The notes under the pieces were generated by a model that made no database searches, was not told where the DNA came from, and saw only the letters and a program-made list of their open reading frames with translations. Shown here piece by piece: positions 18,331-63,136 of a DNA stretch of 64,000 nucleotides (position 1 is its first letter; every line of letters begins with the position of its first letter). This DNA is from Prorocentrum cordatum (taxonomy: Eukaryota): assembly GCA_963575745.1 (NCBI GenBank), contig CAUYUJ010000206.1:1-64000 (forward strand). The letters are read 5' to 3'. A program made the translations under genes and the position numbers.

Positions 18331-18352
18331 TCCGTAGCCATTTTGGCTCAAG
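18331..18352 (+). other. Exact dinoflagellate spliced leader (DinoSL), genomic copy at the LINE 5' end
   Basis: TCCGTAGCCATTTTGGCTCAAG, 22/22 match; followed by ATG rather than a GT donor, so not an SL RNA gene. Confidence 0.97.
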
Positions 18353-18504
18353 ATGATTGGTTCCCCTGGGGACCGCACGGATACCGCTAGTCCGCGGCCA
18401 GACCACCGTTCGCCTTCACCGTGGGAGTTGGGCGCCCACACCCAGTCCTTTCCAGATCGCGCTGCCACGGCCCACCGTGTGTGCTGCTGCCTGGTGTCGT
18501 GGAG

Positions 18505-19608
18505 ATGCCACCGCCGCATTACCGTTCGGAGCAGGCGCTTCCTTGGTACTGCAAGAGCTGCTGCGGGCCTTCGGGGAGACCGTGGTGGAATCATGCAGAG
18601 GCGCGGCAGTGTGCGAAGTGCAAGCTGGGCAAGGGACTGGTCTTCCACAGCGTGCGCCAGCCCGCGGCCCCCTCCCAGCGGAAGAAGGGCAATCAGGGCG
18701 GCAGCGGCAACGGCTACTGGGACGACTCCGTCAAGGTGGCCAAGCTCAAGTCCGAGCTCGCCGAGGCCCGCAAGCGGCTTGCCGCTGTGCAGAGGCCGCC
18801 GCCTGGCGGGGAGGACGTGCAGATGGAGCCGGCCGCGGACGGAGACGGCCCCGAGTCCGTCGCCAAGGACAGGCTACGCGAGGTCGGCGACCTCATCGGC
18901 AAGCTCAAGGGCATCACCGAGCCGTCGGTCGTGGCCACGCGCGACAAGCTGCTGGCCGAGCAGGCCGAGCTGCGGGCTAGGGTGGCGGAGTCCCGACCGC
19001 TCGGACAGCGCTTGCGCGAGATGGGAACTCAGTTCACCAGGCTGCAGAAGCTGCGCGACGACCAGCAGACCAAGCTCGATGGGCTGCAGGCGCAGTTGCG
19101 CGACCTGCAGGAGAAGGAACGGCTCACTCGGGACAAGCTGGCGGCCCTCGACGCTAGCATGGAGGAGCTGGACCAGGAGCGCAAGAGGCTTCAAGGGCAG
19201 GTTCCGACGCCTGGCGACAAGGCGTCGCTCGACGAGCCGATCAAGGGGGTTGGTGCCACGCTCGAGGGCCTCGGGATCTTGCTCCAGAGCCTGGGCGCCG
19301 ATCACCAGCTGTCGGGCAGCCTCACGGCGAGCTTCCAGGAGCTGCAGAGGTTGCAGGAGGAGGAGGCGGCAAAGTTGGCTGCCCAGAAGGCGCAGGCGGA
19401 TGCTGGGGCCGAGGCTGGTCCCGACGTCGAGCAGGCCGAGCGGCAGGACGACGCGGCAGCGCCTCGCACACCACAGCCATCTGCCTTCTCCGACGACCCT
19501 GAGTTCATGGAGGAAGTCGTTGCGGCTGGGGGCGAGAAGCACAGGCTGGAGGAGATCTTCATGCGTTGGGGTGCCAAGGTCAAGAGGCCCAGGCTCACCC
19601 CTGCCTAG
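18505..19608 (+). CDS. LINE ORF1: N-terminal RanBP2-like C4 zinc finger and long coiled coil
   Basis: WYCKSC...WNHAEARQCAKC motif; E/Q/K/L/A-rich heptad region; ATG at 18505, TAG at 19606-19608. Confidence 0.85.
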   Translation: MPPPHYRSEQALPWYCKSCCGPSGRPWWNHAEARQCAKCKLGKGLVFHSVRQPAAPSQRKKGNQGGSGNGYWDDSVKVAKLKSELAEARKRLAAVQRPPPGGEDVQMEPAADGDGPESVAKDRLREVGDLIGKLKGITEPSVVATRDKLLAEQAELRARVAESRPLGQRLREMGTQFTRLQKLRDDQQTKLDGLQAQLRDLQEKERLTRDKLAALDASMEELDQERKRLQGQVPTPGDKASLDEPIKGVGATLEGLGILLQSLGADHQLSGSLTASFQELQRLQEEEAAKLAAQKAQADAGAEAGPDVEQAERQDDAAAPRTPQPSAFSDDPEFMEEVVAAGGEKHRLEEIFMRWGAKVKRPRLTPA

Positions 19609-19667
19609 CATGGCTCCACGGCGATGGTTTTGCGTGTCTTGTGTGGTTCGTCCTCCTTTGTCGCACC

Positions 19668-22600
19668 ATGGCGTCGGTTTCAAGTATCACCACCGTGAAC
19701 GTGTCCTCGGGCGGCCCGCTCGTCGACTTCCTGCCCACGTGCTCGAGTTTTGCATCGCGGTGCAGGAACATCATGCCAAGGCCGAGGGCGATGCTTTGGC
19801 GAAGTTGCAGAATAAAGTAAGAGCTGCTGGGTACCATGGTATATGGGAGCCCGCCCTACCTGGGCAGGGAGTTGGCAGCAGAGGCGGGGTTGCGGTGCTG
19901 GCCCCGCTGCGGGTGGTCATCACCAAACCCCCAGGCCTGGACAGTCACGTGCTGCAGGAAGGCAGGATGATGGCGGCCCACGTCCACGCTGGGGTGAAGG
20001 GCGGCTTCGTCATGCTGTCGTGCTATTTCATTGTGGACGTCAAGCTGTCGCCCGAGAACCTGGCCATGCTGTACAAGCTGTACCAGTATGTCAGGTCGCT
20101 GGAGGCCATGGGCGTTCCGTGGATCGTAGGAGGCGACTTCAACATGGAGGTAGGCGAGCTCGGCCCGTTGTCCTGGCTCCAGTCGGCCAATGGCGTGGTG
20201 CTGGCGCCGAGAGAGCCGACTTGTCTTCAGAGCCTTCCTGGCCGCACCATTGACATGTTCATGGTTTCTTGCCGTTTGCTGCCTCGCGTTCGGCAACCAA
20301 TGGTCGTCGACGCGGAGACGTGGCCGCATCTACCAGTGACCATGGAGCTCTCCGCCACGGCTTTTGACGCGAAGGTCAGGAGGCTTGTCGAGCCACGCGG
20401 CTTTCGGAGGCCGCCTGCGGCGGGGTGCGCGAGGTTCCCCCCCGACTGGGACCCGACCTTGGCGATCATCCAGAGCGCGTCGCACAGCGAGGGCATCACC
20501 AGGGCCTGGGACGTCGTGCTCAGCGGCATCGAGTTCGAGCTGCGGGGCCGCTACGACGTCGTGAAGGACGTGGCGGGGTACTCCACGGTGCCAGGCCCCC
20601 CGACCTTCGAGCTGGCGAGTTTTCACCCTGTCGTGAAAGGTGCCTGGAGCAGGAGGTCGGCGGACACCCAGGCCTGGGCGCAGGCTGCGCGCTGGGCTCG
20701 TCACCTCAGGAGGGTTCGAGTGGCCTTGCAGAGCTTCGTGCTCCAGCTACGCCCGCAGCAGGTCTTCGAGCTCGGCAGCGTCGGCGAGGCGCACGTCGAC
20801 GGTGTGCCTGGCCTGGGCGATGGGGCACCCCCTGCTGCGGAGGTCGTCGGAGTGGCTGGTCTCTCCTCCGATGGTGGTCGGCCTCGGTCGAGAGCTCAGC
20901 GACACCAGCCCCCGCGACGGGCAGGCGAGGACCTATCGTGGGACGCCGTGCACTCCAAGGCGGCGCGCCACCTGCTGGAGTGCGAGAATTTCTTCCGGAG
21001 AATCTGGCGGAGGAAGGGAGTCTGGCCGCACCTGGACGCCGAAGCCGTCGGCTTCTTCTCGCGTGGCATACTTGCCTTAGCGCAGGCAGACTTCGAGCAG
21101 CAGGTCGACCGCATCCTGAGTATCTCCTCCGATGCTGAGGCCAAGCATGAGAAGGCCGTGATGCAGAGCTGGAGGCAGTGGGCGCAGGCAGCTTTTGCGG
21201 CTGGAGCCAAGGGAGCTCACCGATTCATGAAGCCCAAGGCTCTCCAGGAGATCGTGGACGGAGGCAATGGGCTACAACATGGGTACGTACTGGCTGATCG
21301 TAAGCTTGAGTATTGGGAAAGCTTCTGGGCGCGGCATGGCGGTGAGCTGGCTCGCCGACCTGTTGATGCTGACACTTGGGAGCAGCTGCCAAGGCTTGAG
21401 GCGGCCGACGTACTCAAGGCAATCCGTTGTTTCTCTTGGCAGACAGGCGTCGGGCAGATCAACATCGCGCCCAGGGCCATGGAGCACCTCTCCCACGGGG
21501 CGCTGACGGCTATGGCGCGCCTCTTCGAGCGGTGCGAGCACCTCCTGCTGTGGCCAGACGGCAGATTCCTCTCGAAGCTCGTGAGACTCCCCAAGCCAGG
21601 GGGTGGGGAGCGCCTGATTGTGCTGATGAACACGCTGGTCAGGATCTGGGGACGGGCGAGGCGGCCTGTCTCGGCAGCGTGGGAGAAGGCCCATGCGCTA
21701 CCAGAGGTCTGGGGCCACACTGGAGGCAAGTCGTCGAGTGATGCGGCCTTTGATTTGGCGCTCACCAAGGAGATGGCGACCCTGTGCGATGACGACGCCA
21801 TCATTGTGCTGCTGGACATGCTCAAATGCTACGAGCTGGTCAGGCATGATGCCATTTTGTTGGAGTGCAGGGCCAGTGGATACCCTATGCGAATGGCGTT
21901 CATGCTTGTGCAGATGTACCAGCAGCTGCGCTCGGTGCACTCGTATTCTTCGTATTCAGTGGCGCGCAGGGCGTATCAGGGCATCCTGGCAGGCTGCACC
22001 CACGCCACTACGCTTCTCATGGTGTTGTTGACTCGCAGCATTCGCCAGACGATGTCGGTCGCTCCTCAGGTTCAGCCCAAGGACTTGGTGGACGACGTCG
22101 CGCTGTGCTGGGTCGGCAACGACCCGAGCGGGGTGCGAGAAATGGCCATTGCCACTCGTGCGTTCTGCAGGGCTGTCCGGCCCCTCGGGCTGGTGCTGCA
22201 GATGGATAAGTCTGGGCACCTTACGACGTCCAGGCGCACCAGCTACCACTTTCAGAAGTACGCCAGGCTGCTGAAGATCGCTGGCAAGAGGCACATGCGG
22301 TATCTTGGCCACGACCTAGCTGGGTCGTCGGCCACAAGGGCCGTGCAGAAGGGACGCCTGAAGGCCATGCACGGAAAGAAGGCCAGCGTTCGAGCACTGC
22401 AGAAGGGAGCAGGACGACAGCGGGCGGCTCGGCTCTGGGCCACGGGTGTGCTGCCATCCGTGGGGCACGGAGCCACGGTCAGCGGCATCAGCGACACGGA
22501 GCTGCAGCAGATGAGGACCATGGCTGGCGTTTTCTGTGGCTACAAAGGGTCGGGCTCCCTGACGCTGTACCTGGCCGCGCAGCAGTGGAGCTTCGACCCC

Positions 22601-24450
22601 ATATTCCACGCTACCTTCAGCATCGTGGGGCAGTACGCGGCGTGGGTGTGGGATGGGCGTGTGACGCTCTCCCGACTGCAGCGGGCCTGGATGGGCTTGC
22701 GTGACTCCTGGGAAGCCCGCCACACTCACGTCACGTGGGCCAGTGCGCAGGGCCCGCTTTCGGCCTTGTGGTTGTCCCTCAGGAGAGTCAACTGGAACAT
22801 GGCAAGTTCTACAATCTTGGTTGACGATGAGGGCCTGCATATCAGTTTGCTGCAGTATTGTCCCAGTGAGGTGCTGTTTTTCCTGCGTCGCAGCCTCGAC
22901 CGTTGGCAGAGCCATCGTATCCTCGACCAGCTGCCTGAGGCGCCCCCAGCCGATGGTGACGGCAGGCGGCAGCAGCATGTGTGGCTTCGTGCGCTTCGAC
23001 TGGGACACGCCTCCTTGGCGCCTGGCCACAGAGGGGCTCTGGCCAAGCTGCAGTCCAACGGGGTCTGGTCGCCGCAGCGCCGCATGCAGGCTGGCTACGG
23101 CGGCGACGGTTCGTGCGAGTTCTGCGGGGAGGCCTGCTGCGACCTCGAGCATGAGATCTTCGGCTGCACGGTATTGCATCAGCAGCAGGAGGACGAGGAG
23201 ACGGAGCCGTACCCCGAGGAGGTGGCCAAGAGGAGGAAGGACATCCTGGAGGCAGCCCCGTGGCGCGACGGGGGCCAGGTGCAGGACTTCTCGGCCGTCG
23301 ACGTGCTCTACGCGCTGCCCCTGAGGCCTGCTTTCAGGCCGCTGCCTGCACGTGCTCAGGCTGAGCGCGAGTGGGGGGCGATCGACATGCCGTGGCCGTC
23401 GAAGTTGTACGGGGACGGGTCCTGTCTTGAAAGTGATTTCCCTGAGGAACGGCGCTGTGGCTGGGCCGTCGTAGCATTGACCCGAGACCTGTGGCCATAC
23501 AAAGCTTTGTTCGGGAGCCTGGGGGGCCCTATCCAGACGGTGCCCAGGGCCGAGCGCGTTGCTGGTCTCAAGGCCCTGCAGAGGGCCCAGAGGCCAGCCA
23601 CGTACGTGACTGATCATTTACAGCTGCAGGTCGAGGGAATGGCCTGGGAGGGTCGTCATGCTTCTGCCAGAGCGCCTCACGCGTCCATCTGGCGGAGCAT
23701 CCACGAGCTGTATAGAGGCGACCCTGTCAGGCCCGTGTTTGTTTGGACGAAGGCCCATCGGACCGTCCTCGAGGGGTTTGAGGCCTGCCTGGCCTCCCAG
23801 GAGCCCCTGGAGCATTTTTTCGGTAATATGTGGGCTGATGTTTTCGCCCGCGTGGCAGCGGCTGATTTCCTTGGATCCACCTCCGTGGTCAAGGCTCACA
23901 AATTTTCTCTGCTTCGGGCCCAGGACACGATGCGTTGTCTGGCCTGGGCTGCCGAGCGCGTGGCCCGCCTCTCCACCCCGATACTCCGTGCGCCTCCGAA
24001 GGCTGTCTTTCGGCCCCGCCGTCCGCGGCGGCCGACCGATCACGACTTTGTGGTCTTCGCTGGGGGAGCTATTCGATGTCGAGCCTGCTGGAGGCTTGCA
24101 GCGACGGCCTCGTCGTTGAAGTCTCTGGCCTCCCGTGCATGCGACCCCAGGAGGTCGGGCCAGGACACCAGGTCCAGGCCTTGGATCGAGTTTTGATCTG
24201 TGTTAAGTGCGGGGCGCACGCTGTGCGCCCCAATCGGCTGTCGGTCGGCCTGTCTCGAGCGTGCAAGAGGGCTGGGACGGGGTCGGCGGGAGCTGGGAGT
24301 GGGGGGGACGGAGCTATCGCGTCGATGCTCGAGCTGGCTCGAAGGGGCCTGCATCCCAAGACGGGCGAGCCCCTCGAGCCGCTCGTCTTCTCGGAGCTCG
24401 GGGTGCCTGCGATGCCGCAGCAGGCGCCCGAGCCCGAGGCACCTGACTAG
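19668..24450 (+). CDS. LINE ORF2 (APE endonuclease, RT, Cys/His finger, RNase H, two C-terminal CxxC fingers) with two 1-nt frameshifts at about 19750 and about 24147
   Basis: APE: ITTVNVS / IAVQEH / GGVAV / GGDFN / TIDM / HLPV. RT: LLDMLKCYE / GILAGC / LVDD / YLGH. Finger: CEFC..HEIFGC. RNase H: YGDGS / TVPRAE / TDH / KAH / NMWAD. C-terminal CRAC and CVKC. Confidence 0.92.
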
Positions 24451-36252: not shown

Positions 36253-37020
36253 CTAAGCAGGCCTGGTCATCGACATGCTCGAACAAATGCATACTATGAT
36301 CCAGGGGTGCATCTTGTCTGCGGATCTGCGGCTTAGTACCGTGTGAGATCACCCCGTCCACCGACGCGCTTACATGGCAGGATCGGAGTTGGTTGTCTTC
36401 CAGGTGGGTGGCTTCTGTTTGCCGACGGTGCAGGACACGTTTGTAATTGTTTTTCTGGTTGCACGAGGCTAGTCCCGCAGTGTGGAGGGGGGTGCCCATC
36501 GCACAAGTTCTCAATCGTCTGGCAGTGAGTGCTGCTTTGGCGTAATTTCGCTGCTCGAAGGCCACCTTCATGGGCGCACCATCACTTTTGACACGTCAAA
36601 ATACTGCCCAGGAAATAAGGTCGTTCGCTCAAGGGGCAGGTTGCAATATTCAACGTGAGCGCTCTGCGAGTTGCAGACAGGCTTATCAAATTGTCAATAT
36701 GTTGCTTCGGGCGACGCGAGTCGGTCGGCAGGCTCATTCTCCTCGCTCCAGGATCAGGGATTCGTTGGGCATCCATCCGGGCGGGATCGCTATGGCTCTC
36801 GACCTCGAGGAGGAAGGGGGGAGGGGGGGACGGTGGGGCACAGTGGCAGCGCAGCAGCCTCAGCCAGCAAGCCCGAAGGCCGGCAAGGCCAGCGGCAGCC
36901 ACCCCCCACCCATTCGAGACGATCGAAGGACAGGACAGGACAGGAGCGGCGTGCGCGGAGGCGCGCCCTGTGCGGGCTGCCGTAAGCCTTCTCGCATTCT
37001 CGCACGCGCATTCTCACATG

Positions 37021-37219
37021 TGTGGTCGTACCCCCACTCCCCTCCTCCCTGTGTGTCCCTTGGATCTGACCGTAGCCTGTTGGCTTAAGGCCGCCGGGTC
37101 GGCGGAGTTTCTCAGTACTGTACTGTGGTGTTCAGAGGCGTGCCTCGGAAAACTCTATGCCCATCCTTTGATAACTCGTTATCTTTCGCCTTCTTCGATG
37201 CCCGACGGAGACGATCTCA
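37021..37219 (+). repeat. 5' LTR (TG...CA)
   Basis: Identical to 46403-46601 except the penultimate base. Confidence 0.96.
37069..37089 (+). other. SL-like sequence within the LTR (also at 46451-46471)
   Basis: ACCGTAGCC-TGTTGGCTTAAG versus SL ACCGTAGCCATTTTGGCTCAAG: 19/22 (one gap, two mismatches). Confidence 0.8.
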
Positions 37220-40200
37220 ATGGTAGCCGGAGCGTGGATGAGAATGGGTCGGGACAGGCAACAGAGGGCGCGAGGACGTCCGAGGCACCACGGCAGGCTG
37301 GGAGCCCATCGGCTGAGGCGGATGCAGCACATCAGCAAGGCGGCGAAGCAGCAGAGGGCCGCTGGTGGAGCTCGTGGTGGCAAAGCTGGTCGGGGGCAGG
37401 CTGGGACTGGAGCATGTCCGACTGGGATGACAACAGCACCCACGGCTGGACTAAGGTGGGCTCGCAGCCCGTCAGGAGTAGGGATTTTTCGGCGCCTCCT
37501 TCCTTTCCCGGGCTAGATCACCTGGAGATCTTCACGGCCAACTTGCAGGCATGGTCCAAGAGAACAGGGGTTCTGCCAGAACACCAGGCCAGCAAGGTGC
37601 TCGAAGGCTTCGAGATAGATCTTCAGGGCAAGCGCAAGGGGATACGCCACCTTCTTGATGCAGAGGACGGCATAACGGAGTTGCTCAAGCACTTGCACCT
37701 TCTTAGGGGGGAAAAGCCAGGCGACAAGGAGCGAGAAGCTCACAGCGAGGCGCTGTTCGATTACCTGATTCGTCCGACAGAGTCCCTCACTGCTTTCGTC
37801 ATCAGGCGTGACAGCCAGATTGCTCAAGCAGAGAGGTTCGGTCTCACGCTTCCAGACGCTGTGCAGGCACGCTACTACGAGGAGGGCGCACAGCTGACCA
37901 AGCATAACCGCATCAACCTACGGACCTTGATGGGCGGAGACAAGACAGTAGCAGCGGTTAGACGAGCGCTCTTGGAGCTTGACGTCTCAGAGAAGTCGGT
38001 TCTCCCTCAGAAGTCAGCGACGCCGGCGAAGAGTTTCCCAGCAGAGCTAGAGGGCTGGGACTCGGACTCGGAAGACGGCGACGAGACGCTCGACCTCTTT
38101 GAAGTGGAATTCCCCGAAGATGACGCGACAGTGTTTCTGGGGGCGCTGGACGACAAAGACTTGTGCGAAGATGAGGGATACCAGATCTTCATGGAGATGG
38201 CTTCGAAGCGAAGGCGGACCTGGAAGGAGTCTAGGCAAACGAAGGCGGCGAGAAAAGTTGACCGAGACTTTTTCGACCGTAAGCGAGGTGGCAAAGGTGG
38301 AGTCCTTTCGCCTCCAACTCCATCTCCCGGCTTCAAGCGCATCAGCAAGGACGACTTGAAGAAGAGAACGCGTTGCACAAATTGTGGAGATAAAGGTCAC
38401 TGGCGAGAAGATTGCAAGAAGCCATACAGGTCGAAGGCGGACAGACTCAAGTCGGAGGGCAAGAGCTTCTACTTTCAAGTGGGATCGGCAGCGGGCTCGA
38501 GCGGAAGCGCCTGGGCGATTTTCGCCGAGGAGCTGGCCGAGGCGATCGCGTTGGTGACGGCTAGCAGGTCAGACTCATTTTCGGGAGTGACGCTGAGGTC
38601 GATGGCAGACCAGGCTCTGGTAGACACGGCAGCGGCCCAGGCTTTGATAGGCGTCCCGGACCTCAAGCATCTCAAGTCGGCTTTCAAGGAGAAGGGTTTC
38701 AAGGTGCACGTTAGGTACCAGGACGATCTTCCTTTCGCCAACGGCGTCGGAGGGCGCGTCCGCCCGGTCGCCAAAGCTTTCGTTCCAGTATCATTTCACG
38801 GCTGTGGGGTCTTGGAATTTCTCGTGTTGCCGCATCCTTGTCCTCCCTTGTTGCCAGCAGGGTTCCTGGACTTCATGTCGGCCAAGATCGACCTAGCGGC
38901 CAACCAGATGACGGTGGGAACGGACGACACCACCACGCTGGATATGACGAAGCTCCCATCAGGCCACCGCACGATCGGTCTGATCGGCAAGTCCCCGTCG
39001 GATTTCGTTCTCGACCCTGATCTGGCCCAGAAGTTTCCGTCTTCTCGGATCGGCTCGGAGAGCGCCTGGGCCATGAGCGTGTCGAGCGGCTCAGACAGGT
39101 GGGAGCGGGGCGGCAACAAGCTGAGGCTGGTGTTCACCAAGCCCCGGCGTGCCATGCCAGTGAAGAAGGATCTGAGTGAGTCTCCCGTTCCGTCGAGCTT
39201 TCTGGAAGACGAGATGGTCACGACTTGCAGGTTCAAGAATCCCGACGGGATCTACGTCGAGCACATCTTCGAGGGCTCGGTATCCGACCTCGAGGACGAT
39301 GCGAAGCTCATGCCGGACTACTGGGTCGGGCACGTGGAGTTTCAGGTGACGGCGCCGCCTGTGCAGGACAGGAGGGGCGGGCCGGGGCCGCCTGCATGCC
39401 AGCAGTCTCCTCCTCCTCTCTCGTCGTCCGAGTCGTCGTTCGAGTCGGGATCGATCGCGACGGGACTGAAGTCAGGGACTGACGAGGGGTCTCGAGACCC
39501 CCTCTCCTCCGTAGCCCCTCTCGGCTCGAGCTCGGCCGATTCTTTCGTCCACGTATCGCCTCCCAGCTCGCAGCCGGCGGGTAGCCATGCCGGTGCAGGT
39601 TGTCAAGAAGGGCGCCAAGCCGGGTTCGAGGTCAGTGGGGAACCTGCTGGGGCGCACGCGCGCCTCGATCAGGAACGCAGGCGGGCTCGCTCCACCGACG
39701 CACTACGAGGAGCCGGCCGAGAGCGAGATCGAGGAGAACTGGGGCGTCACGCCGGATCCCTGGAGGGACACGCAGCTGCAGCAGATCGACTACTCGGAGG
39801 TGGAGCTCAGCGAGGTCGAGAAGGGTCTGGTCAACGAGGGCGGGTTTATGTTCACGCCCGCGGAGACGGGCTGGCGGCGCTTCGCGCTGAAGCTGCTGGC
39901 AGTACTGACCTCGTGCGCTCAGTCGAGGCTGATCTCGGTGCTCGCCCCCTCGGTGATGCCGGCGATCGCCAGCAAGAAGATCTTCGCGACCGAGAACTGC
40001 CCGCACCCCCTGGAGCACCGCAAGCGCCGGGCCAACCAGCATGCGGCCTGGATCGTCTGCCAGCTGTGCAACAAGCGTCTTTCGTGTCACTCCAAGACGG
40101 TCGAAAAGAAGCTCGAGGCCAAGATCAAGAGGGAGTGCGAGAAGACCGAGAAGTCACAGAAGGCCAAGAACGAGCAGGACATGATCAGGGAGGCGGTGGA

Positions 40201-42477
40201 GGCCTACCACGCGAAGCAGGAGCACGTGAAGCAGGAGACTCTCGACGAGCCGGGTGCCCAGGAGGTTCCACCTCATCATCCGACTTACCGCAGGGCCGTG
40301 CCCATCAGCTCTGCGTGCCCGGTGTTTCCCCGCAGCGAGGGGCATCCAGGAGTGCCGAACCACCTCTCTTGGAAGGTGCCGCCGCCGGGCTACGTGGCGA
40401 TCGACCTCGAGGGACCGGCCGCGACGAAGGCACCTCCGACGGCACGCAAGTCCTCTGGGGTCGCGCACCTGACGCGTGCCCAGGGCCAGAGCGGAATGCT
40501 GAGGAACCAGAACCCGACGGTCGAGAGTCACCTGATGGAGGCGCTCTTGCAGAACCAAGAGTCCAACCGCAAGGAGATCCTGGAGTACATGTTCGCACAG
40601 AGGCAGGAGTCGCAGGCGACGAGGGAGCAGTTCGAGCAGCTGATGAAGGTCTTGTCGGCGAATCTTCGTTCGGGCGGATGATCGGCTTCGGGATCGGAGG
40701 GGCCTCCGATCGAGCCAGCACCCATGGAGACGCTGGACGACGAGTACGGCCCGAGGCGCCTCTCGTGAGCAGCTGCCCGGCTCAGGACAAGCTGGACGGC
40801 GACCTGGTGGCGAGTGAGCCGCCACGGGCCTTTGCTTCCGCTGACGCCGGGTCCTCCATATTCGAGGCTTCGACGAAGATCGAGGTCGAGTCTGCGCACG
40901 CGATAGCAGGCTCCACGGACGCCAAGTCTGACCCGGGCTCGAGCAGAGCTTTGGATAAAAAGAAGTTCAGTCGTTCCACGATTTGGGAAATTTCGTCAGC
41001 CTCTCAGGAAACTCAGGAGAGGCTTCGCCAGATCCTGCGCCCGGGGACCGATCCGAGCGGCTGGACCGCCAAAAGTTTTTCAGTCTGGGACTCTGGGGGA
41101 CGCCGCGAGCATCTGAGGGTCAGGTCGGGCTTGGAGGCTCGCTGGGTCTGGGATGCTGACACGGGGGGGCATGTCTCTCTGGAAAGGCTCTCGGACGAGG
41201 CGCAGTGGCAAGCCGAGGACGTCGGCCCGAGCGAGAAGGCCCAGTGGTTGGTCTACCTCGCTCTTCGAGCCGCGGACAGCCGCGCGATGGAGTGTCCTAG
41301 GTCGGGGGTTAGGCGTTTGAGAGTGACGGCGACGGACCGGGCTCGGGACGTGGTGGACGCGCTGTGGGCCGGGGCCTCAGCGTCAGGGCTCCAAGAGGCC
41401 TTAGCCGGATACAGCGCCGATCAGCTAAGGTTTACCGTTTGGTCTCCTGGTCGCCCGTCGTCGGACTTAGCTTCCCAGATCCCTAGCTCTTGGGTCGTCT
41501 TGGACAAGAGCCCGCTCCTTAGCAAGCGTCGAGAAGCGCCCGAAGCAGCAGTTCCCCGTCATGTGCGCCAAGACGCCCTTAGAATGTTCGACGGGGTAGG
41601 AATCCGAGCCGGTCGCAAGAAGCTAAGGAAGGACCTCATACGCCATCTTCGACGAGAACAGAGGACCCTGCTTTTGGAGCTTTTCTCGACCCCTCGAGTC
41701 TCAGTGGAAATGGTTCGTAGGGGCTATCAGGCCTCCCACGCTATCGATCTTAGGACAGGTTGGGATCTTCGCCAGGCGAGTCAGAGGGCCAAGCTCTGGG
41801 AGGTCATGGAGAAGGACGGGCCCGAGGTCCTCCTGATGAGCCCTCCTTGTAAGGGTATGAGTGTCGCCAGGGTCCCTAACTGGGACACCATGCCGAAGCA
41901 CGATAGAGATCGAGTCGAGCAAGAGTGTCTGATGATGTGGGGTCTGTGCATGCAGCTGGCGATGTTTCAGCTGTCCAAGGGACGGTCTCTCTGGATTGAG
42001 AATCCGTACGGAGCCTTCTCTCAGCAGCTGAGCTCGACGAAGGAGCTTCTGAGCCAGCCCGGGGTCCAGGTGGTTCGGGGAGACCAGTGTGAGTTCAGGC
42101 TCAGGACCCTCGACGGGGGTCTGGCCATGAAGCCCACGAGCTTCATCTCGAACAGTCCGGAGCTTCTCGCCGTGTGTCACAGGAGGTGCACGGGGCAGCA
42201 TGAGCACTCGCAATTGGTGGGCGGGGCCAGGACATCAGCAGCTGAACGGTATCCTGAGCGTCTGGTGGACGCGCTGATTGAGGGCGTTGAGCGGACAGGT
42301 TTTGCCGTTCTGTCAGCTAGCGAGCCGGAGGCCCTCTCGTTTCCGGCCGCCGCTGCCCCAGGGGCAGACCCCCACCCGGTTGACGGCGGAGAGATCAGCG
42401 ACTCCGAGGAGGAGGGGGAACTCGAGCGTCCGGGCCCTGAGGGGGCCGAGAAATCCGATGCCTCAGGTTCGGTTTGA
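37198..42477 (+). CDS. Copia polyprotein part 1: Gag, CCHC knuckle, aspartic protease, linker, C5 DNA methyltransferase
   Basis: In-frame ATG inside U5 (37198); CTNCGDKGHWREDC (38374-38415); ALVDTAAA (about 38623); ELFS / SPPC (41839-41850) / IENP (about 42000) / DQC / KPT; ends at an in-frame TGA. Confidence 0.9.
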   Translation: MPDGDDLNGSRSVDENGSGQATEGARTSEAPRQAGSPSAEADAAHQQGGEAAEGRWWSSWWQSWSGAGWDWSMSDWDDNSTHGWTKVGSQPVRSRDFSAPPSFPGLDHLEIFTANLQAWSKRTGVLPEHQASKVLEGFEIDLQGKRKGIRHLLDAEDGITELLKHLHLLRGEKPGDKEREAHSEALFDYLIRPTESLTAFVIRRDSQIAQAERFGLTLPDAVQARYYEEGAQLTKHNRINLRTLMGGDKTVAAVRRALLELDVSEKSVLPQKSATPAKSFPAELEGWDSDSEDGDETLDLFEVEFPEDDATVFLGALDDKDLCEDEGYQIFMEMASKRRRTWKESRQTKAARKVDRDFFDRKRGGKGGVLSPPTPSPGFKRISKDDLKKRTRCTNCGDKGHWREDCKKPYRSKADRLKSEGKSFYFQVGSAAGSSGSAWAIFAEELAEAIALVTASRSDSFSGVTLRSMADQALVDTAAAQALIGVPDLKHLKSAFKEKGFKVHVRYQDDLPFANGVGGRVRPVAKAFVPVSFHGCGVLEFLVLPHPCPPLLPAGFLDFMSAKIDLAANQMTVGTDDTTTLDMTKLPSGHRTIGLIGKSPSDFVLDPDLAQKFPSSRIGSESAWAMSVSSGSDRWERGGNKLRLVFTKPRRAMPVKKDLSESPVPSSFLEDEMVTTCRFKNPDGIYVEHIFEGSVSDLEDDAKLMPDYWVGHVEFQVTAPPVQDRRGGPGPPACQQSPPPLSSSESSFESGSIATGLKSGTDEGSRDPLSSVAPLGSSSADSFVHVSPPSSQPAGSHAGAGCQEGRQAGFEVSGEPAGAHARLDQERRRARSTDALRGAGRERDRGELGRHAGSLEGHAAAADRLLGGGAQRGREGSGQRGRVYVHARGDGLAALRAEAAGSTDLVRSVEADLGARPLGDAGDRQQEDLRDRELPAPPGAPQAPGQPACGLDRLPAVQQASFVSLQDGRKEARGQDQEGVREDREVTEGQERAGHDQGGGGGLPREAGAREAGDSRRAGCPGGSTSSSDLPQGRAHQLCVPGVSPQRGASRSAEPPLLEGAAAGLRGDRPRGTGRDEGTSDGTQVLWGRAPDACPGPERNAEEPEPDGRESPDGGALAEPRVQPQGDPGVHVRTEAGVAGDEGAVRAADEGLVGESSFGRMIGFGIGGASDRASTHGDAGRRVRPEAPLVSSCPAQDKLDGDLVASEPPRAFASADAGSSIFEASTKIEVESAHAIAGSTDAKSDPGSSRALDKKKFSRSTIWEISSASQETQERLRQILRPGTDPSGWTAKSFSVWDSGGRREHLRVRSGLEARWVWDADTGGHVSLERLSDEAQWQAEDVGPSEKAQWLVYLALRAADSRAMECPRSGVRRLRVTATDRARDVVDALWAGASASGLQEALAGYSADQLRFTVWSPGRPSSDLASQIPSSWVVLDKSPLLSKRREAPEAAVPRHVRQDALRMFDGVGIRAGRKKLRKDLIRHLRREQRTLLLELFSTPRVSVEMVRRGYQASHAIDLRTGWDLRQASQRAKLWEVMEKDGPEVLLMSPPCKGMSVARVPNWDTMPKHDRDRVEQECLMMWGLCMQLAMFQLSKGRSLWIENPYGAFSQQLSSTKELLSQPGVQVVRGDQCEFRLRTLDGGLAMKPTSFISNSPELLAVCHRRCTGQHEHSQLVGGARTSAAERYPERLVDALIEGVERTGFAVLSASEPEALSFPAAAAPGADPHPVDGGEISDSEEEGELERPGPEGAEKSDASGSV
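37221..37237 (+). promoter_or_regulatory. Primer binding site, probably for initiator tRNA-Met
   Basis: TGGTAGCCGGAGCGTGG, 1 nt after the LTR; TGGTAGC...GCGTGG is the expected complement of a tRNA-iMet 3' end (one extra base). Confidence 0.8.
39587..40681 (+). CDS. 364-aa ORF overprinted in the +1 frame within the copia polyprotein; Cys/His motif and coiled coil; function unknown
   Basis: Own ATG (GCCATG context) and TGA; natural amino-acid composition; CPH..N.HAAWIVCQLC motif; the polyprotein frame here is G/A/R-rich yet stop-free. Confidence 0.78.
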   Translation: MPVQVVKKGAKPGSRSVGNLLGRTRASIRNAGGLAPPTHYEEPAESEIEENWGVTPDPWRDTQLQQIDYSEVELSEVEKGLVNEGGFMFTPAETGWRRFALKLLAVLTSCAQSRLISVLAPSVMPAIASKKIFATENCPHPLEHRKRRANQHAAWIVCQLCNKRLSCHSKTVEKKLEAKIKRECEKTEKSQKAKNEQDMIREAVEAYHAKQEHVKQETLDEPGAQEVPPHHPTYRRAVPISSACPVFPRSEGHPGVPNHLSWKVPPPGYVAIDLEGPAATKAPPTARKSSGVAHLTRAQGQSGMLRNQNPTVESHLMEALLQNQESNRKEILEYMFAQRQESQATREQFEQLMKVLSANLRSGG

Positions 42478-45400
42478 ATTCCACGGGAACTCCAGGACGA
42501 GGTCCACAAGTTACACGTGAATTTGGGACACCCCCGGCGAGAGCATCTGATCAGGACGCTAAAGGTCGCTCAAGCAAAGCCTGAGGTCATCAACTGGGTC
42601 AGCAAGCATTTCGTGTGCCCTGGATGTCAGTCGGCCTCTCGGCACGGCTGGCGCCGGCGCTCGTGCCTGCCGCGAACCTATCGGTTCAATAAATTGGTCG
42701 CGGCGGACCTTCTGTATATAAGTGCCCTCGGCGAGACTAGGCCAGTCCTCAACTTGATCGACCACGGGTCGAACTTCCAGGTTTGCGTCCTCCTGCGCTC
42801 GGCTTCGGCCGTCGAAGTGTGGGGGGCCTTTCTGCGGTGTTGGGTGAGGCCACTCGGTCTGCCTGAGACCGTCATGACAGACGGGGGACCCGAGTTCGAG
42901 GGAGCCTTCTCCCGGGGGCTGGAGCAGGAAGGAATCTTCCAACACGTGTGCGACGCGGAGTCACCCCACCAGAACGGGCGCTGCGAGCGTCATGGGGGGC
43001 TCGTGAAGGCTGCTCTGGTTAAGGCTTCTGGAGGCACTGCTCCAGCGACTCTGGAAGAAGTGGAGGACCTTCTCTGCGAGGTGGTCGCGGCCAAGAACCG
43101 TTTTGCCCATAGGGGAGGGTTCTCTCTTTACCAAATGGTTTTTGGGGAAAATCCCAGACTCCCTCGTTGCCTTTTGTCGGGCGATGCTCACGACGAGGTC
43201 GGGATCGACGAGGCGGTGAGGGGCTCGACTGACGCGGAGTCTCCGTCGGCAGCTTTCGCGAGGAAGCATGCTTTGCGAGAGGAGGCCCGGCGGGCCGTCA
43301 TGACCATGGACGTGCGGGGCCGTCTCGTTTCTGCCTCGCGTGCTCGCAAGCATGTGGATCCAGTGTTTTCCCCGGGGAGTTGGGTTTACGTGTGGAGGCG
43401 TGCCCCCTCTCAGCCTCGCGGCAACGTCGGTAAAAGCAGGTGGACTGGGCCCGGGGCCGTGGTTTTCCAGCAGGGAACGACGGTTTGGGCGGCGATACGC
43501 TCGCGTCTTTTGAAGTGTGGGAGCGAACAGGTTCGTTGGGCCACCAAGGAGGAGTCGTGGGGAGCCGAGCTTCTCGACTCTCCCTCTTTCGACAGCCTCA
43601 GGCGCGACCTGAAGGACCCAGGGAAGCGGGTGGGAGCGGTTGACGTGGAGTCCGAGGGGCCCCCTCCTCCAGGTGCTTGGGACGTGGCGGCGCCCCCTGA
43701 ACGCTCGGAAGGCGCAGCTGCGGTGGTGGCCCCACCCACTGCTCGAGGGGCTGAGCCGGTGGTTGCTCCAGAGGATGATCCTCCTGCCCCTCCTGCTCCT
43801 CCTCTCCCCTCTTCGCTCGAGAGGGCCTCGACGGCCCAACCTCCCTCTTCGATCCAGGGGTCCGTGCCCACGCCCGCGGTCTCTCGTCAGATCACGGATC
43901 CGGGAAGCGTCGATCCCTCCCCTCGTCCTCATCAGAGACCAAGGCTGGAGCAGCCTCCCCCTCACCAGTCAGCGCCTCGGACCCCGGCAGAGCAGCTGCC
44001 AGCTTCTGGGCGAGCGTTGGCGCTCGCGAGAGAGATCGACCCTTCGATCCGGCGCCGCAGCGCTCTAGATGACACTCCAGTTTCGATTCGCCGTGGCGAT
44101 CTGCGCCCGGCTGCCTCTTCCTCCTCCGACGCTCCTGGCCAGCCGAGCTTAGGTGCTGGTGGCGGCGCAGACGCCGTCCTGGAGTCCGGAGGGCGTGCGA
44201 GGTCGCGAACTCCCGAGCCTCGCCTTCTCGAGCCCAGGGATGAGTCCCTGAGATCGGGCACGGTTTTTGACAGATACGGTGCTCCGGTCTCGAGGGTCGC
44301 CGATCGGGCGATTCGAGACGCTGGCTTGGAAGATGTGCCTCCAGATCAGAGGATCTTGGGTTCCTGGTTTGAGGGCGGCGGCGAAGACGAGCAGCCAGAG
44401 TTCGACGAAGAGCAGGAGGAAAGCCTATGGGCTGAGTTGTGCGGGTGGTACGGCTGGGAGCCGTCTTTTTGGGTTGGGGGAGATGACACCTTCGCGGAGA
44501 CTGGGGGCTGTTCTGGGGAAGGGGCCCCTCCCAGTCGGAGAGGAGCGGAGGTTTCGTTCAAGCATCTCTCGGAGGCCGAGAGACGCCTTTTCGTTTTCTC
44601 AGATGCCAAGGAGTGGCAAGCGATTTTAGATTCAGGAGCGGTGAGGATCGTTCCTGCCGCCGAGGCGGCTTTAGTGCGCAAGCGTTTTCCTGATCGAGTG
44701 CTGGGTTCCCGGATGGTCCGACGTTTTAAACCACAGGAGGGTTTGGGGTCTGAAGATGTTGCTAAATCTCGATGGTGCGTGCAGGGGCACCATGACCCCG
44801 ACAGTGATCAGTTACAGATCTACGCCCCCACCCCCCAAGGGGAAAGCATCATGTTGACTCTACAAGCGATTTGCTCGTTGGGTTGGACCTTGGAAGTTGC
44901 AGATGCTAAGAGTGCATTCTGTCAGTCCAACAGACTGTCTCGTCCACGTGGACAGATTTTCTGCGAGCCCTGTCAGGGGCTGAACCTCGCCCCAGGCGAG
45001 CTCATTGAGCTCATTGCGCCAGTGTATGGATTAAATGATGCTCCATTGCTGTGGCACCGCACGCTCACACAATGGTTGTCCGAGGACGGCTTCCGAGAAA
45101 TTCCTTCTCGAGCCCTGTTTGTGGGTGAAACGGTCGGGCCAGGGGGAACCTCGCTCCATCGTGCTCATAGAAGTGGACGACCTTATAGTGTCTTCGCACC
45201 CCAGGGAAAGGGCCGGTTTGAGGGAGCGGCTCCAAGGCCGTTTTAAATTCGGGAAGTGGAAAATCGGGGAATCGGATTTTGCGGGGAGGCATCTCAAGCA
45301 GGTGGGGTCTCGTATTTTTGTGGACCAAGAAAAATACGTCGTTGAGCAGCTTGCCCCCATGCGTCTGGCTAAGGAGCGCCGTGCTGTGCCGGATGATCTT

Positions 45401-46470
45401 CTCACCGCGGAGGAGATCCGCCACTATCGTACGATGGTGGCACAGATACAGTGGCTGGGGAGGGAGTCTCGTCCGGACGTGGCCGCCGGAGCCTCTTTGC
45501 AGAGTGCCGCGCTGCCTAGCCCCACGGTGGCTGACGCCATCATGTGTTTGAAAATAGTTAAGCATCTCAAGAGTTCGGCGTGCCAGAAGATTACGATCTG
45601 GCCTCTAGACGCTGCTTCTCTGAATTTCGTGACTATTTCCGATGCTGGTGGCCCCGGGTCCGCTCGTAGAAACGGGGCCCAAGGAGGATGGCTCGTGTGT
45701 GCGGCCGATGCGTCGATTCGGCAAAATGTGAGGTCCCGGGTGTCCTTGCTTTCTTGGCGTTCGGTCAGGTTGAAGCGCGTGGTCGCTTCCACGGGGGCTG
45801 CAGAGACTCTGAGTTTGAGTGCCGCGCTGGCCGAGGGCCAGTGGCTCGCCATCATGTGGCGAGACTTGCTTTTCAATGACGTGTGCAAGCCCGAGTGGCA
45901 CCTCTCGCAGGCGCCCTTCTCTGTTGTGCTGAGCAGGGACTGTACCTTGTCTGAGGGAGTGAGCTCGCTTTCGGTCGTTGACGCGAAATCAATTTTCGAT
46001 ACTTTGTCTCGCAACAGTGCGGGCTCCCGTCAGGACAGGAGAACGGCGATTGAGCTCGCTGTCGTGCGCGACAGTCTCTCGGCTATAGGCTCTCAGATCA
46101 GATGGGCCCCTCATGGCCGCATGGCGGCAGATTGCCTTACTAAGGCAGACTCACACGGGGAAACGTGGCTCTCTCGGATCTTCTCAGTCGAGGTTCGATC
46201 GTGCTCGTGGATGAGGAGGGACATATGACAGAGAGAGCTCTCAACAATGATCTGAAGAGTCGGTCGCGCGCGTCGTCCCGTCAGGCTCTGAACCAGCCGG
46301 GAGACGGCTACTGGGTCGGGGATCAGGCCGGGGTAGGCGAGAGGGGTGAGGAGGAGGGCAGGAGTTTCGGGCCGCTGTCAGATCCACTGAAAGTAGTCCC
46401 GTTGTGGTCGTACCCCCACTCCCCTCCTCCCTGTGTGTCCCTTGGATCTGACCGTAGCCTGTTGGCTTAA
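42478..46470 (+). CDS. Copia polyprotein part 2: integrase, RT, RNase H (frameshifts at about 45100 and about 46158)
   Basis: HVNLGH..CPGC; AADL / TDGGPEF / NGRCERHGG; KSRWCVQG / DAKSAF / YGLNDAP / EVDD; SDA / AAE / VDAKS / ADCLTK; same frame as part 1 across the TGA. Confidence 0.93.
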
Positions 46471-46601
46471 GGCCGCCGGGTCGGCGGAGTTTCTCAGTAC
46501 TGTACTGTGGTGTTCAGAGGCGTGCCTCGGAAAACTCTATGCCCATCCTTTGATAACTCGTTATCTTTCGCCTTCTTCGATGCCCGACGGAGACGATCTT
46601 A
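46403..46601 (+). repeat. 3' LTR (TG...TA)
   Basis: 198/199 identical to the 5' LTR; followed by CATG. Confidence 0.96.
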
Positions 46602-48304
46602 CATGCTCGCACAGCACCTCGATTTCACATTTTCATATTCTCACATTCTAGTCAGTCCACGTTCTAGTCAGTCGCATTCGAGACGATCGAAGTAGGTGCG
46701 GAAACAATGGGTGAACAGGACTCGCTGTCCGCGTCGCCGCACGCTGTCCACCTAAAACAAAAAGCAGCCCGCCCAACCGCGGGGGGCTGTCGTTTCTGGA
46801 CAGCACCTGCTGCTGGGCATCGTGTCCATTTCCTTCTACCCCTTTCGGGCTTTCAAGCCCATCAGTTCTGCACGAACGAGATGGGCACGGAAAGAATGGG
46901 TACACTGCTCAACAGCAGTTCCTGTTCATTTTGAAAAGGACTCGCTGTCCGCGCCGCCGCGGACTGTGTCCATTTGAGACAGGAGGCCGCCTGCCCAACA
47001 GCGGCCGCTGTTGATCTGGGACAACATGTGTTGTTGGTTTGGGACAACATGTGTTGTTGGGCGTCCAAATCAGTAGACGTTTGTCGCGAGCCTGCTCGCG
47101 GGGGGAGGGAGGAAGGGAGGGAGGGAGGGGGGGGGGGAGGAGGAGGAGGGAGAGGGGAGGGAGGGAGGGAGGAGAGGAGGGGAGGGAGGGGGGAAGGACC
47201 AGGAGGAGGAGGAGGAGGAGAGAGGGGAGGAGGGAGGAGGGAGGGAAGGGCAGTGCCCCCCTCCTCTCCTCCTCCTCCTCCCCCCCCCCCCCCTGGAATT
47301 CAAGTGGCCTGCGGGCGCCGACGCCAGAGTTCGCGGCCCCAAGGGCGGACCGATCCTTCCGGCTGCTCCTGGGGTCCCTTGGGGTGCCGGTCCTCCCAGG
47401 AGGGAGGGAGGGAGGGGAGGAGGAGGAGGAGGAGGAGGAGGAGGAGGAGGAGGAGGCGGGAGGGAAGGAGGGAGGGAGAGAGGGACCGAGCCCTCCCGCG
47501 CGGCCTCCAGCCGGGGGCGTGCGCGCCCTCCTGCGGCCACCCCTAGGAGGCGGGCCCCCTCTCCCTCGCGGCGCGGCAGCGGCGGTCGCTGCGCGGCCCG
47601 CGGCGGTCGCTGGCCGGGAGGGCGCTTCGCTTCGGTCCGCCCGTCCCCCCAGAGGTCCGCTGCCCGCTGTCCTCTCCCTCCCCCTCCTCTCCTCCTCCTC
47701 CTCCTCCTCCTCCCTCCCTTTCCTCCCTTCTCCTCTCCTCCTCCTCCCTCCTCCTGCTCCTCCTCCTCCTCCTCCTCCTCCTCCTCCTCCTCCTCCTCCT
47801 CCTCCTCCCCATCCCTCCCTCCTCCGATGCCTTCCCCCCCCCCCTCCTGCTCCGCTCCGTCTGATGTTGGAAACCATCGGGGGCAGCATTAGGGGGGGTT
47901 AGGCTTCGGGGGGTGTGGAACATCGAGCTAGGATCGGCGATACACCGACGATAGATCGACGATGGGCTCCCGATAGCGAATCCGCACATCCCCAGGCGGG
48001 GTGGGCTATCATGCCCCCATCGGCGACATATCGCCAATCCCAGCTAAGTGTTCCCCCCCTTCAGCGTTGACTTTCAAATGAGGGGGACAGGGACGCCCGG
48101 GCGACGATGGGGGACGCAAGGGCCAAGGGCAGCGACGGGTTGGAGGGCCAGGGCGCGGAGGACGCGAGGGAGGGCAACGGGACTCAGGCGCTCGTCGTCC
48201 ACGACGGCGCCTTGAAGGGCTTCACCCAGCGCCTCCTCAGGACGGTTCTCCCGCGTGTGGCAGCTTACGAGAGCAGGAGAAAGACGAGGAGAAATGAGGA
48301 GACG

Positions 48305-63114: not shown

Positions 63115-63136
63115 TCCGTAGCCATTTTGGCTCAAG
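63115..63136 (+). other. Second exact DinoSL, directly after (CCT)n/(CCTCCG)n
   Basis: TCCGTAGCCATTTTGGCTCAAG, 22/22; not followed by GT. Confidence 0.97.

What the first reader, a model, noticed from the sequence alone, without database searches (positions are those of the whole stretch)
37021..37219. Spliced-leader-like sequence built into both LTRs of a copia element
Seen: 48 nt into each 199-bp LTR is ACCGTAGCC-TGTTGGCTTAAG (19/22 to DinoSL), preceded by a pyrimidine-rich stretch and followed about 110 nt later by the in-frame gag ATG (37198). Established: the R region of an LTR is copied from the 5' end of the genomic RNA. Inference: the SL marks the U3/R border. The genomic RNA may be SL-trans-spliced, the very short U3 may act as a splice-acceptor tract instead of a promoter, and SL homology could support first-strand transfer. 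It could also allow template switching onto any SL-capped host mRNA, a route to gene capture such as the DNMT.
Basis: partly seen in the sequence, partly recalled or inferred. Interest (0 to 1): 0.86.

Follow-up and report, generated by a model that had tools for sequence, protein, structure and literature searches.

The report
Decayed spliced leader inside copia LTRs
A young dinoflagellate copia retrotransposon carries a slightly decayed copy of the host's 22-base spliced leader in both terminal repeats, most likely a fossil of a leader-capped element RNA, and this makes it directly testable how such elements define their RNA start.

Summary
A 9.6 kb Ty1/copia element (37021-46601) has LTRs identical over 197 nt. 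Each LTR carries ACCGTAGCCTGTTGGCTTAAG 48 nt in (37069-37089, 46451-46471). That is 19 of 22 alignment columns to DinoSL (two substitutions, one deletion). No shuffle reached this: 0 of 100 window-sized and 0 of 300 and 0 of 500 LTR shuffles.

The motif is almost certainly leader-derived, and an origin at the U3/R border is the simplest route. But the LTRs are identical while the leader copy has three changes, and the same window holds two perfect leaders. So the last replication cycle did not copy a fresh leader. This argues against ongoing leader-based strand transfer.

Six distant relatives from metagenomes show only weak traces: TGGCTCAAG in one LTR, TGGATCAAG in another, summed p about 0.05.

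Gene capture by leader homology is mechanistically unlikely, because nothing lies upstream of a leader on an mRNA for the cDNA to copy.

No RNA data could be obtained, so the RNA start and any current trans-splicing remain untested.

My literature searches found no earlier report of a leader inside an LTR. Interest 0.6.

The parts
37016..37020 (+). Target-site duplication ACATG, 5' copy (3' copy at 46601-46605)
   Evidence: Read. It fits an LTR of 198 nt.
37021..37219 (+). 5' LTR (TG...CA). Identical to the 3' LTR over its first 197 nt.
   Evidence: (family D7, 100%).
37021..37068 (+). Pyrimidine-rich first 48 nt of the LTR (presumed U3). Positions 37031-37050 are 19 of 20 pyrimidines.
   Evidence: 73% pyrimidine, a level reached by 3.6% of 48-nt windows; 3.3% of 48-nt windows hold such a 20-nt tract.
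37069..37089 (+). Spliced-leader-like 21-mer in the 5' LTR. Possible acceptor AG dinucleotides at 37074-37075 and 37088-37089.
   Evidence: 2 substitutions, 1 deletion. (no shuffle reaches it).
37091..37105 (+). G+C-rich inverted repeat CCGCCG-GGT-CGGCGG directly after the leader-like motif
   Evidence: Read. The fold of 37069-37240 is not more stable than shuffles (z = 0.63).
37198..39500 (+). gag-protease part of the long frame. The start codon lies inside the LTR and the frame runs through the primer-binding site. A four-codon upstream ORF begins at 37157.
   Evidence: zf-CCHC at residues 393-408, E = 0.0042, below Pfam's cut-off; 435 representative homologues of residues 1-500. The 3' limit is approximate.
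37221..37237 (+). Primer-binding site TGGTAGCCGGAGCGTGG, one base after the LTR
   Evidence: the same 13-mer with 0-2 substitutions lies at the matching place in L001, L002, L004 and L006. L003 and L007 carry TGGTAGCGGAGCT at the matching place, one base shorter. No tRNA gene is in the window to compare with.
39508..39530 (+). Second, weaker leader-like stretch TCCGTAGCCCCTCTCGGCTCGAG inside the element, 56 nt before the ATG of ORF-X
   Evidence: Score 12 is reached by 3.7% of 300 shuffles on both strands and 2.0% on the + strand alone.
39587..40681 (+). ORF-X, 364 codons in the +1 frame. Third-position G+C is 0.79-0.91 against about 0.6-0.8 in the gag frame elsewhere. Its middle part is conserved in the relatives, where it also sits in a separate frame.
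   Evidence: no Pfam family.
41617..42333 (+). DNMT-fold domain (ELFSTPRV ... SPPC ... ENP) between protease and integrase
   Evidence: present in L001, L002, L004, L005, L006; no Pfam or PDB sequence match; model pLDDT 66, pTM 0.66; every listed Foldseek match is a eukaryotic DNA cytosine-5 methyltransferase (DNMT1, DNMT3A/3B, plant MET1), E from 4.6e-05, TM 0.35-0.46.
42475..42477 (+). In-frame TGA between the DNMT-fold domain and integrase
   Evidence: L001, L002, L004 and L005 read through here without a stop.
42517..46228 (+). Integrase, then copia-type reverse transcriptase, then the C-terminal part. The frame breaks near 45093.
   Evidence: rve at residues 58-150, RVT_2 at 729-864 of P0002.. 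table 4: two X1 contigs lack one base at 45093.
46403..46601 (+). 3' LTR, with the leader-like 21-mer at 46451-46471

Best explanation
The 21-mer is a retro-copied spliced leader.

Inferred origin: in an ancestor of this family the element's genomic RNA received DinoSL by trans-splicing about 50 nt into the LTR, as dinoflagellate nuclear mRNAs do. Minus-strand strong-stop DNA ran to the end of that RNA. The leader was carried into both LTRs at what was then the U3/R border.

Shown by the sequence: since then it has been inherited as ordinary LTR DNA and has drifted at three positions. The copy in this window was not made from an RNA bearing a fresh canonical leader.

Inferred, untested: the relic keeps a terminal AG behind a pyrimidine-rich U3, so it could still act as a trans-splice acceptor or as the first bases of R. 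No current function is shown.
For: The match to DinoSL is far beyond chance.

It is full length, including the first base, which points to copying of an RNA 5' end and not of a truncated relict.

It sits in a bona fide copia element with identical LTRs, a target duplication, a conserved primer-binding site and integrase before RVT_2.

The same window shows leaders being copied into DNA from retroelement and gene RNAs. A perfect leader abuts the ATG of a 1947-codon LINE-like ORF at 18331, and another heads an ORF at 63115.

The LTRs are 197 of 197 identical, yet the leader has 3 edits. That fits inheritance as DNA and not renewal.

Weak traces of the leader's 3' half lie at a similar LTR position in distant relatives. 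TGGCTCAAG ends at LTR position 82 in L006 and TGGATCAAG ends at position 76 in L007. TCAAG occurs once in 5 of 6 relative LTRs, at positions 44-78.
Against: There are no RNA data, so the U3/R border is inferred only (one search listed no RNA holder).

Full-length similarity to the leader is not significant in any of 4 relative LTRs (p = 0.20-0.74).

By local alignment only 1 of 6 relatives is below 0.05 with 500 shuffles (L006 0.040, L007 0.074, the others 0.20-0.83). The summed score gives p = 0.048. In the earlier run on 5 relatives with 300 shuffles, L006 gave 0.013, L007 0.043 and the sum 0.020.

The TCAAG observation is post hoc, and the relatives are not independent of each other.

How a 22-nt non-homologous flap was first carried across the strand transfer is unexplained. 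It needs a rare microhomology jump.
Confidence: 0.5

Rival explanations
1. The genomic RNA is leader-trans-spliced in every cycle at the AG of the built-in leader. U3 serves as acceptor tract and not as promoter. Leader homology supports first-strand transfer.
For: A pyrimidine-rich U3 lies directly upstream and the motif ends in AG followed by G. The two perfect leaders in the window are also preceded by pyrimidine tracts. Their upstream pyrimidine fractions are reached by only 0.2% and 1.6% of 48-nt windows. The model is self-consistent: the leader's own AG recreates the acceptor.
Against: R in both new LTRs derives from the RNA 5' end, so this model predicts a canonical leader in a copy with identical LTRs. 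The observed leader has 2 substitutions and 1 deletion, which removes the ATTTTGG stretch, while the canonical leader is present twice in the window. The escape would be strand transfer before the leader is copied.
Confidence: 0.12
2. The relic lies in U3 and serves as a basal promoter element, as proposed for DinoSL relicts upstream of retrogenes. Transcription would then start downstream of it.
For: Song et al. 2017 (PMC5585692, abstract and passages read) propose that the TTT(T/G) motif of relict leaders acts as core promoter, and that the best-kept relicts lie 50-100 bp before the start codon. U3 is copied from the 3' LTR, so a decayed relic in identical LTRs is expected.
Against: In this LTR the TTTT stretch itself is lost (CCTGTTGG). 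The motif ends 108 nt before the ATG, outside the 50-100 bp range. The promoter role of the motif is itself a hypothesis in that paper.
Confidence: 0.12
3. A cis-encoded leader mimic. Transcription starts at about 37069, so the RNA begins with a leader-like sequence without trans-splicing and gains whatever a leader confers.
For: It fits a decayed motif in identical LTRs, because R is copied from the genome-encoded 5' end. A DinoSL on transcripts of a dinoflagellate RNA virus has been read as molecular mimicry. I saw this only as cited in passages of PMC9651163.
Against: A 48-nt U3 would have to hold the promoter. Three changes, including loss of the ATTTTGG stretch, weaken the mimicry. No RNA data exist.
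Confidence: 0.12
4. DNA-level or recombinational acquisition. The 5' half of the LTR derives from the 5' junction of a LINE-made retrocopy, that is, pyrimidine microsatellite plus leader.
For: Both perfect leaders in the window follow (CCT)n-type tracts, and U3 contains CTCCCCTCCTCCCT.
Against: No homologous donor was found in the window. The route needs an unusual recombination. Pyrimidine microsatellites are common here.
Confidence: 0.06
5. Chance resemblance.
For: None beyond the three differences from the canonical leader.
Against: 0 of 100 window-sized shuffles and 0 of 300 and 0 of 500 LTR shuffles reach it.
Confidence: 0.02

Closest known systems
[quoted passage not shown] 2017, PMC5585692.
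   Same: A leader added to RNA by trans-splicing is copied back into DNA and then decays. The AG inside or at the end of the relic can serve as the next acceptor (passages).
   Different: Those relicts sit upstream of single retroposed genes. Recycled ones are usually truncated at the internal AG. This one is full length, duplicated in both LTRs of an autonomous copia element, and inherited with the element.
Ty1-copia elements of Symbiodiniaceae (SmTCL1-4, Chen et al. 2018, PMC5776459)
   Same: Dinoflagellate copia elements of about 10 kb with near-identical young copies (main text read).
   Different: The text I read does not mention a leader in the LTR.
Cer1 of C. elegans (Gypsy/Ty3; PMC3315495)
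   Same: An LTR retrotransposon in an organism that trans-splices leaders. One of its RNAs receives SL1 (passages).
   Different: In Cer1 only the spliced 2.4 kb mRNA is trans-spliced. The 8 kb genomic RNA is not, and no leader is reported in the LTR.
DinoSL on transcripts of a Symbiodinium +ssRNA virus (Levin et al. 2017, seen only as cited in PMC9651163)
   Same: A selfish genetic element carrying the host leader at its 5' end, read as mimicry.
   Different: That is an RNA virus without LTRs or reverse transcription. Here the leader is in DNA and decayed.
Retroviral and LTR-retrotransposon R region and first-strand transfer (textbook knowledge, recalled)
   Same: The argument rests on this rule: R of both new LTRs is copied from the RNA 5' end.
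   Different: No known element uses a host spliced leader as R. That remains the untested novel reading.

Membership tests
Ty1/copia LTR retrotransposon | Integrase encoded before reverse transcriptase, with a copia-type RT (RVT_2) | tested here: met
   on P0002, rve at residues 58-150 (E = 5.6e-05, below Pfam's cut-off) and RVT_2 at 729-864 (33.7 bits, above the cut-off of 31.6).
Ty1/copia LTR retrotransposon | Long terminal direct repeats flanked by a short target duplication | tested here: met
   (197 of 197 nt identical). (ACATG on both sides).
Ty1/copia LTR retrotransposon | Primer-binding site complementary to a tRNA 3' end next to the 5' LTR | tested here: inconclusive
   TGGTAGCCGGAGC lies one base after the LTR. 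It is conserved with 0-2 substitutions in L001, L002, L004 and L006 and as a form one base shorter in L003 and L007. No tRNA gene is in the window and no host tRNA set was at hand. The likeness to initiator tRNA-Met is recalled only.
Ty1/copia LTR retrotransposon | Polypurine tract directly before the 3' LTR | tested here: inconclusive
   Relatives have GGGG-rich runs abutting the LTR. The window has GAAAGTAGTCCCGT there, and a purine-rich run lies about 35 nt upstream.
DinoSL relict (retro-copied spliced leader) | Sequence identity to the 22-nt DinoSL beyond chance | tested here: met
   19 of 22 columns. No shuffle reaches it.
DinoSL relict (retro-copied spliced leader) | Lies at the position of the 5' end of the retro-copied RNA | not testable with these tools
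   No RNA holder was listed. The runs laid were contigs only.
SL RNA gene | Leader exon followed by a splice donor, with an intact Sm-type ATTTTGG stretch | tested here: not met
   The motif is followed by GCCGCC and the stretch reads CTGTTGG. No Rfam family matched anywhere in the window. Whether Rfam has a dinoflagellate SL model I did not check.
   No Pfam family for the domain at E up to 1, or for any of 6 aligned members at E up to 10 apart from one unrelated weak hit. No meaningful PDB sequence match.
   All listed Foldseek matches are eukaryotic DNA cytosine-5 methyltransferases (DNMT1, DNMT3A/3B, plant MET1), with E from 4.6e-05 and TM 0.35-0.46, on a model of moderate quality. SPPC occurs in the window and in L002, and SPEC/TPEC in the other four.
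   All six sequences read ELFS-x-P/Q/S-R in place of a glycine loop. The expected motif is recalled, not taken from a call.

The most novel reading that the evidence does not exclude
A clade of dinoflagellate copia elements has no LTR promoter in the usual sense. The elements are transcribed by read-through. A pyrimidine-rich U3 plus the AG of a built-in leader relic forms a portable trans-splice acceptor that defines the genomic RNA 5' end. The leader is R, or part of it. Fresh leaders are copied into LTRs now and then, which would explain leader traces of different ages in different families. LINE-made retrocopies landing behind (CCT)n tracts would use the same trick.
Probability: 0.15. Interest if true: 0.85.

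Novelty: new variant of a known kind. Interest (0 to 1): 0.6.

Why it matters
Dinoflagellate promoters are poorly defined, and how their abundant retrotransposons are transcribed is not known. A leader fossil inside an LTR shows that an LTR-element RNA was trans-spliced and reverse-transcribed to its capped end. It also gives a base-exact marker for the RNA 5' end. The three differences from the canonical leader let RNA reads tell genome-encoded from trans-spliced leaders. That turns the question 'promoter or trans-splice acceptor' into a simple read-mapping test.

Tried and rejected
RNA evidence. The look-up of sequencing runs listed no RNA holder. The four runs laid (X1, X2, X4, X6) were all contigs and gave no ends or leader joints at the LTR. 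X4 and X6 are of unknown kind, and I drew nothing from them.

Whole genome. None is held for this window.

Earlier findings. Three look-ups returned nothing.

More relatives. Viral contigs gave none. Genome contigs gave none.

Contig ends as RNA ends. Four metagenome contigs (L001, L002, L004, L006) have overlapping head and tail of 88, 70, 116 and 93 nt. I first read this overlap as R of a transcript. I rejected that reading because every head holds the same 122-123 nt of LTR, whatever the LTR length (130-178 nt). A fixed-word assembly graph gives exactly that.

The listing of real hits in this call missed the LTR motif because of the best-match search mode. This was corrected. The shuffle result still counts any hit.

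Leader-like stretches inside L001 (3777-3796) and L002 (3893-3930), 120-160 nt before the DNMT-fold domain. They looked like a capture scar, but they are marginal (p = 0.36 and 0.045). They lie in a repeated coding motif that forms TAGCCC...GGGCTTAG units.

RNA structure of the presumed R is not more stable than shuffles.

Rfam found nothing in the window.

The LINE-like ORF had no PDB sequence match.

Full report
WHAT IS THERE

The window holds one LTR retrotransposon at 37021-46601. Its terminal repeats, 37021-37217 and 46403-46599, are 100% identical over 197 nt. No third copy lies in the window. ACATG flanks both ends (37016-37020 and 46601-46605).

One base after the 5' LTR comes TGGTAGCCGGAGCGTGG. 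Its first 13 bases recur with 0-2 substitutions at the same place in four relatives, and in a form one base shorter in two more.

The coding part reads gag with a weak CCHC knuckle, then a protease-like stretch, then integrase, then a copia-type RT. RVT_2 scores 33.7 bits, above Pfam's cut-off. The rve and zf-CCHC hits fall below their cut-offs. This order makes the element Ty1/copia.

The copy is not fully open. An in-frame TGA sits at 42475-42477. The RT frame breaks near 45093, where two contigs of run X1 lack one base.

The family is multi-copy and diverged in X1. 323 contigs were laid, of which 54, 84, 110 and 75 fall in the identity classes 99+, 95-99, 90-95 and under 90. The nearest public proteins (89% identity over residues 380-500) are named Prorocentrum cordatum.

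THE MOTIF

ACCGTAGCCTGTTGGCTTAAG lies at 37069-37089 and 46451-46471, 48 nt into each LTR. Against DinoSL it has two substitutions and one deletion. DinoSL is printed as DCCGTAGCCATTTTGGCTCAAG in the abstract of PMC5585692.

- No first-order Markov shuffle of the window (0 of 100) held any match with three edits or fewer.
- No dinucleotide shuffle of the LTR reached its score: 0 of 300 and 0 of 500.
- The real window has five hits at four edits or fewer: the LTR pair, two perfect leaders at 18331 and 63115, and a partial one at 57863 on the minus strand.

HOW LEADERS ENTER DNA IN THIS WINDOW

The perfect leader at 18331-18352 abuts the ATG of a 1947-codon ORF. That ORF has a weak endonuclease hit (Exo_endo_phos, E = 8.1e-04, below cut-off). 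Its residues 880-1480 fall among RVT_1-bearing clusters (28 of 30 hits, best score 0.98). I read it as a LINE-like element whose leader-capped RNA was copied to its very end.

The leader at 63115 heads a leader-plus-ORF arrangement typical of a retrogene.

All three independent leader sites follow pyrimidine-rich DNA. The 48 nt upstream are 100%, 90% and 73% pyrimidine, levels reached by 0.2%, 1.6% and 3.6% of all windows.

WHY ONGOING RENEWAL IS UNLIKELY

[quoted passage not shown] If the template RNA of this copy had carried a trans-spliced leader that was copied, both LTRs would hold the canonical leader.

They hold a variant with three changes, one of which removes the ATTTTGG stretch. Yet the LTRs have not diverged at all, and the canonical leader is present twice nearby. 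So the motif was inherited as DNA at least in the last cycle, and probably for long enough to gather three changes.

THE GENE-CAPTURE IDEA

A strong-stop cDNA ending in anti-leader can pair with the leader of a host mRNA. But the leader is the first sequence of that mRNA, so nothing lies upstream for the cDNA to copy. This is my inference from the mechanism.

The DNMT-fold domain between protease and integrase is present in all five long relatives, whose gag is 27-35% identical to this one. Its acquisition is therefore old.

The domain has no Pfam or PDB sequence match. A model of moderate quality (pLDDT 66) finds only eukaryotic DNA cytosine-5 methyltransferases (DNMT1, DNMT3A/3B, plant MET1) among the listed matches, with E from 4.6e-05 and TM 0.35-0.46. 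Passages of de Mendoza et al. 2018 (PMC5890265) state that Symbiodinium copia elements lack any DNMT domain. This divergent domain is worth its own look.

RELATIVES

The gag part has 435 representative homologues at E up to 0.001. I aligned the window protein with 25 of the 150 listed, chosen for coverage. A scan of metagenome contigs with that alignment gave nine loci.

Six of the nine gave a full LTR: L001 178 nt, L002 174, L004 130, L005 180, L006 152 and L007 175. I left out three. L003 holds only 84 nt of LTR. L008 shows no clear LTR. L009 has no upstream sequence.

- Full-length alignment to the leader was not significant in any of the four LTRs tested (p = 0.30, 0.74, 0.60 and 0.20).
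- Local alignment with 500 shuffles gave L006 0.040, L007 0.074, L005 0.20 and the rest 0.56-0.83, with p = 0.048 for the sum.
- An earlier run on five LTRs with 300 shuffles gave L006 0.013, L007 0.043 and 0.020 for the sum.

The two best hits are the leader's 3' end, TGGCTCAAG and TGGATCAAG, ending at LTR positions 82 and 76. The window's motif ends at position 69. TCAAG occurs once in five of the six LTRs. This is suggestive and post hoc, and it does not show conservation.

READING

The simplest account is a leader fossil. Once, a leader-capped genomic RNA was copied to its end and the leader was fixed at the U3/R border. It has since been passed on as LTR DNA.

Whether it now serves as an acceptor, as the start of R or as a promoter element is open. 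I put 0.5 on the fossil reading and about 0.12 on each functional rival.

LITERATURE

Five searches and the passages read found no report of a leader inside an LTR. The passages came from PMC5890265, PMC7245778, PMC12014239, PMC3229502, PMC9911081, PMC5585692, PMC9651163, PMC3315495, PMC11453091 and PMC3942190. For PMC5776459 I read the main text.

The nearest precedents are relict leaders of retrogenes, SL1 on a subgenomic Cer1 RNA but not on its genomic RNA, and a leader on a dinoflagellate RNA virus, seen only as cited. Subscription journals are not covered by these searches.

Noticed in passing
window 18331-24196: A perfect 22-nt DinoSL directly abuts the ATG of a 1947-codon LINE-like ORF (weak endonuclease hit; RT-like by the protein atlas). 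It is preceded by a long (CCT)n tract. This looks like a full-length insertion of a leader-capped LINE RNA.
   Followed up: partly
window 63115-64000: A second perfect DinoSL, then a 51-nt leader and an ORF that runs off the window. It is preceded by (CCT)n and (CCTCCG)n. Probably a retrogene.
   Followed up: partly
window 18283-18330, 63067-63114, 37021-37068: All three independent leader sites follow pyrimidine-rich DNA, with upstream pyrimidine fractions reached by only 0.2%, 1.6% and 3.6% of 48-nt windows. This may reflect a LINE target preference for (CCT)n, or a need for an acceptor tract upstream of the leader's AG.
   Followed up: partly
window 39508-40681: A second leader-like stretch (first nine bases perfect, score reached by 2-4% of shuffles) lies 56 nt before the ATG of a 364-codon ORF in another frame. 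That ORF has very high third-position G+C. Its middle is conserved in the relatives, again in a separate frame. It could be expressed from a trans-spliced subgenomic RNA.
   Followed up: partly
window 41617-42333; L001 3873-4592; L002 3992-4711; L004 3863-4582; L005 6542-7261; L006 4211-4750: A domain with a DNMT-like fold but no Pfam match lies between protease and integrase in this copia clade. The glycine loop after ELFS is missing, and the Pro-Cys motif is kept in only two of six sequences. Published text says Symbiodinium copia elements lack DNMT domains.
   Followed up: partly
window 42475-42477 and about 45093: An in-frame TGA precedes integrase and is absent in four relatives. A one-base difference from two X1 contigs lies where the RT frame breaks. 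The copy may be defective, or the assembly may have an indel error.
   Followed up: partly
window 57863-57881 (minus strand): A partial leader, GCCTAGCCATTTTGGCTTG, lies inside a tandem repeat of roughly 110 nt.
   Followed up: no
window 9869-14882 (minus strand): Four similar leader-like 20-21-mers at five edits (for example ACAGTCGCCATTTTGGCTTGG) lie at 9869, 13086, 13357 and 14862. They may be relicts in a repeated unit.
   Followed up: no
L001 3777-3850; L002 3893-3960: A leader-like start (CCGCAGCCATTTT) is followed by two TAGCCC...GGGCTTAG units, in frame, 120-160 nt before the DNMT-fold domain. Marginal by shuffles (p = 0.36 and 0.045).
   Followed up: partly
proteins P0007, P0055, P0158: Short fragments of this element's gag (P0007 97% and P0055 94% identical; P0158 shares a 90% cluster with P0006) are filed in a EukProt set labelled Pyramimonas sp. 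CCMP1952, a green alga. The longer relatives are named Prorocentrum cordatum. This may be cross-contamination of that data set.
   Followed up: no
window 60958-61057: A run of 100 N, which is a scaffold gap.
   Followed up: no
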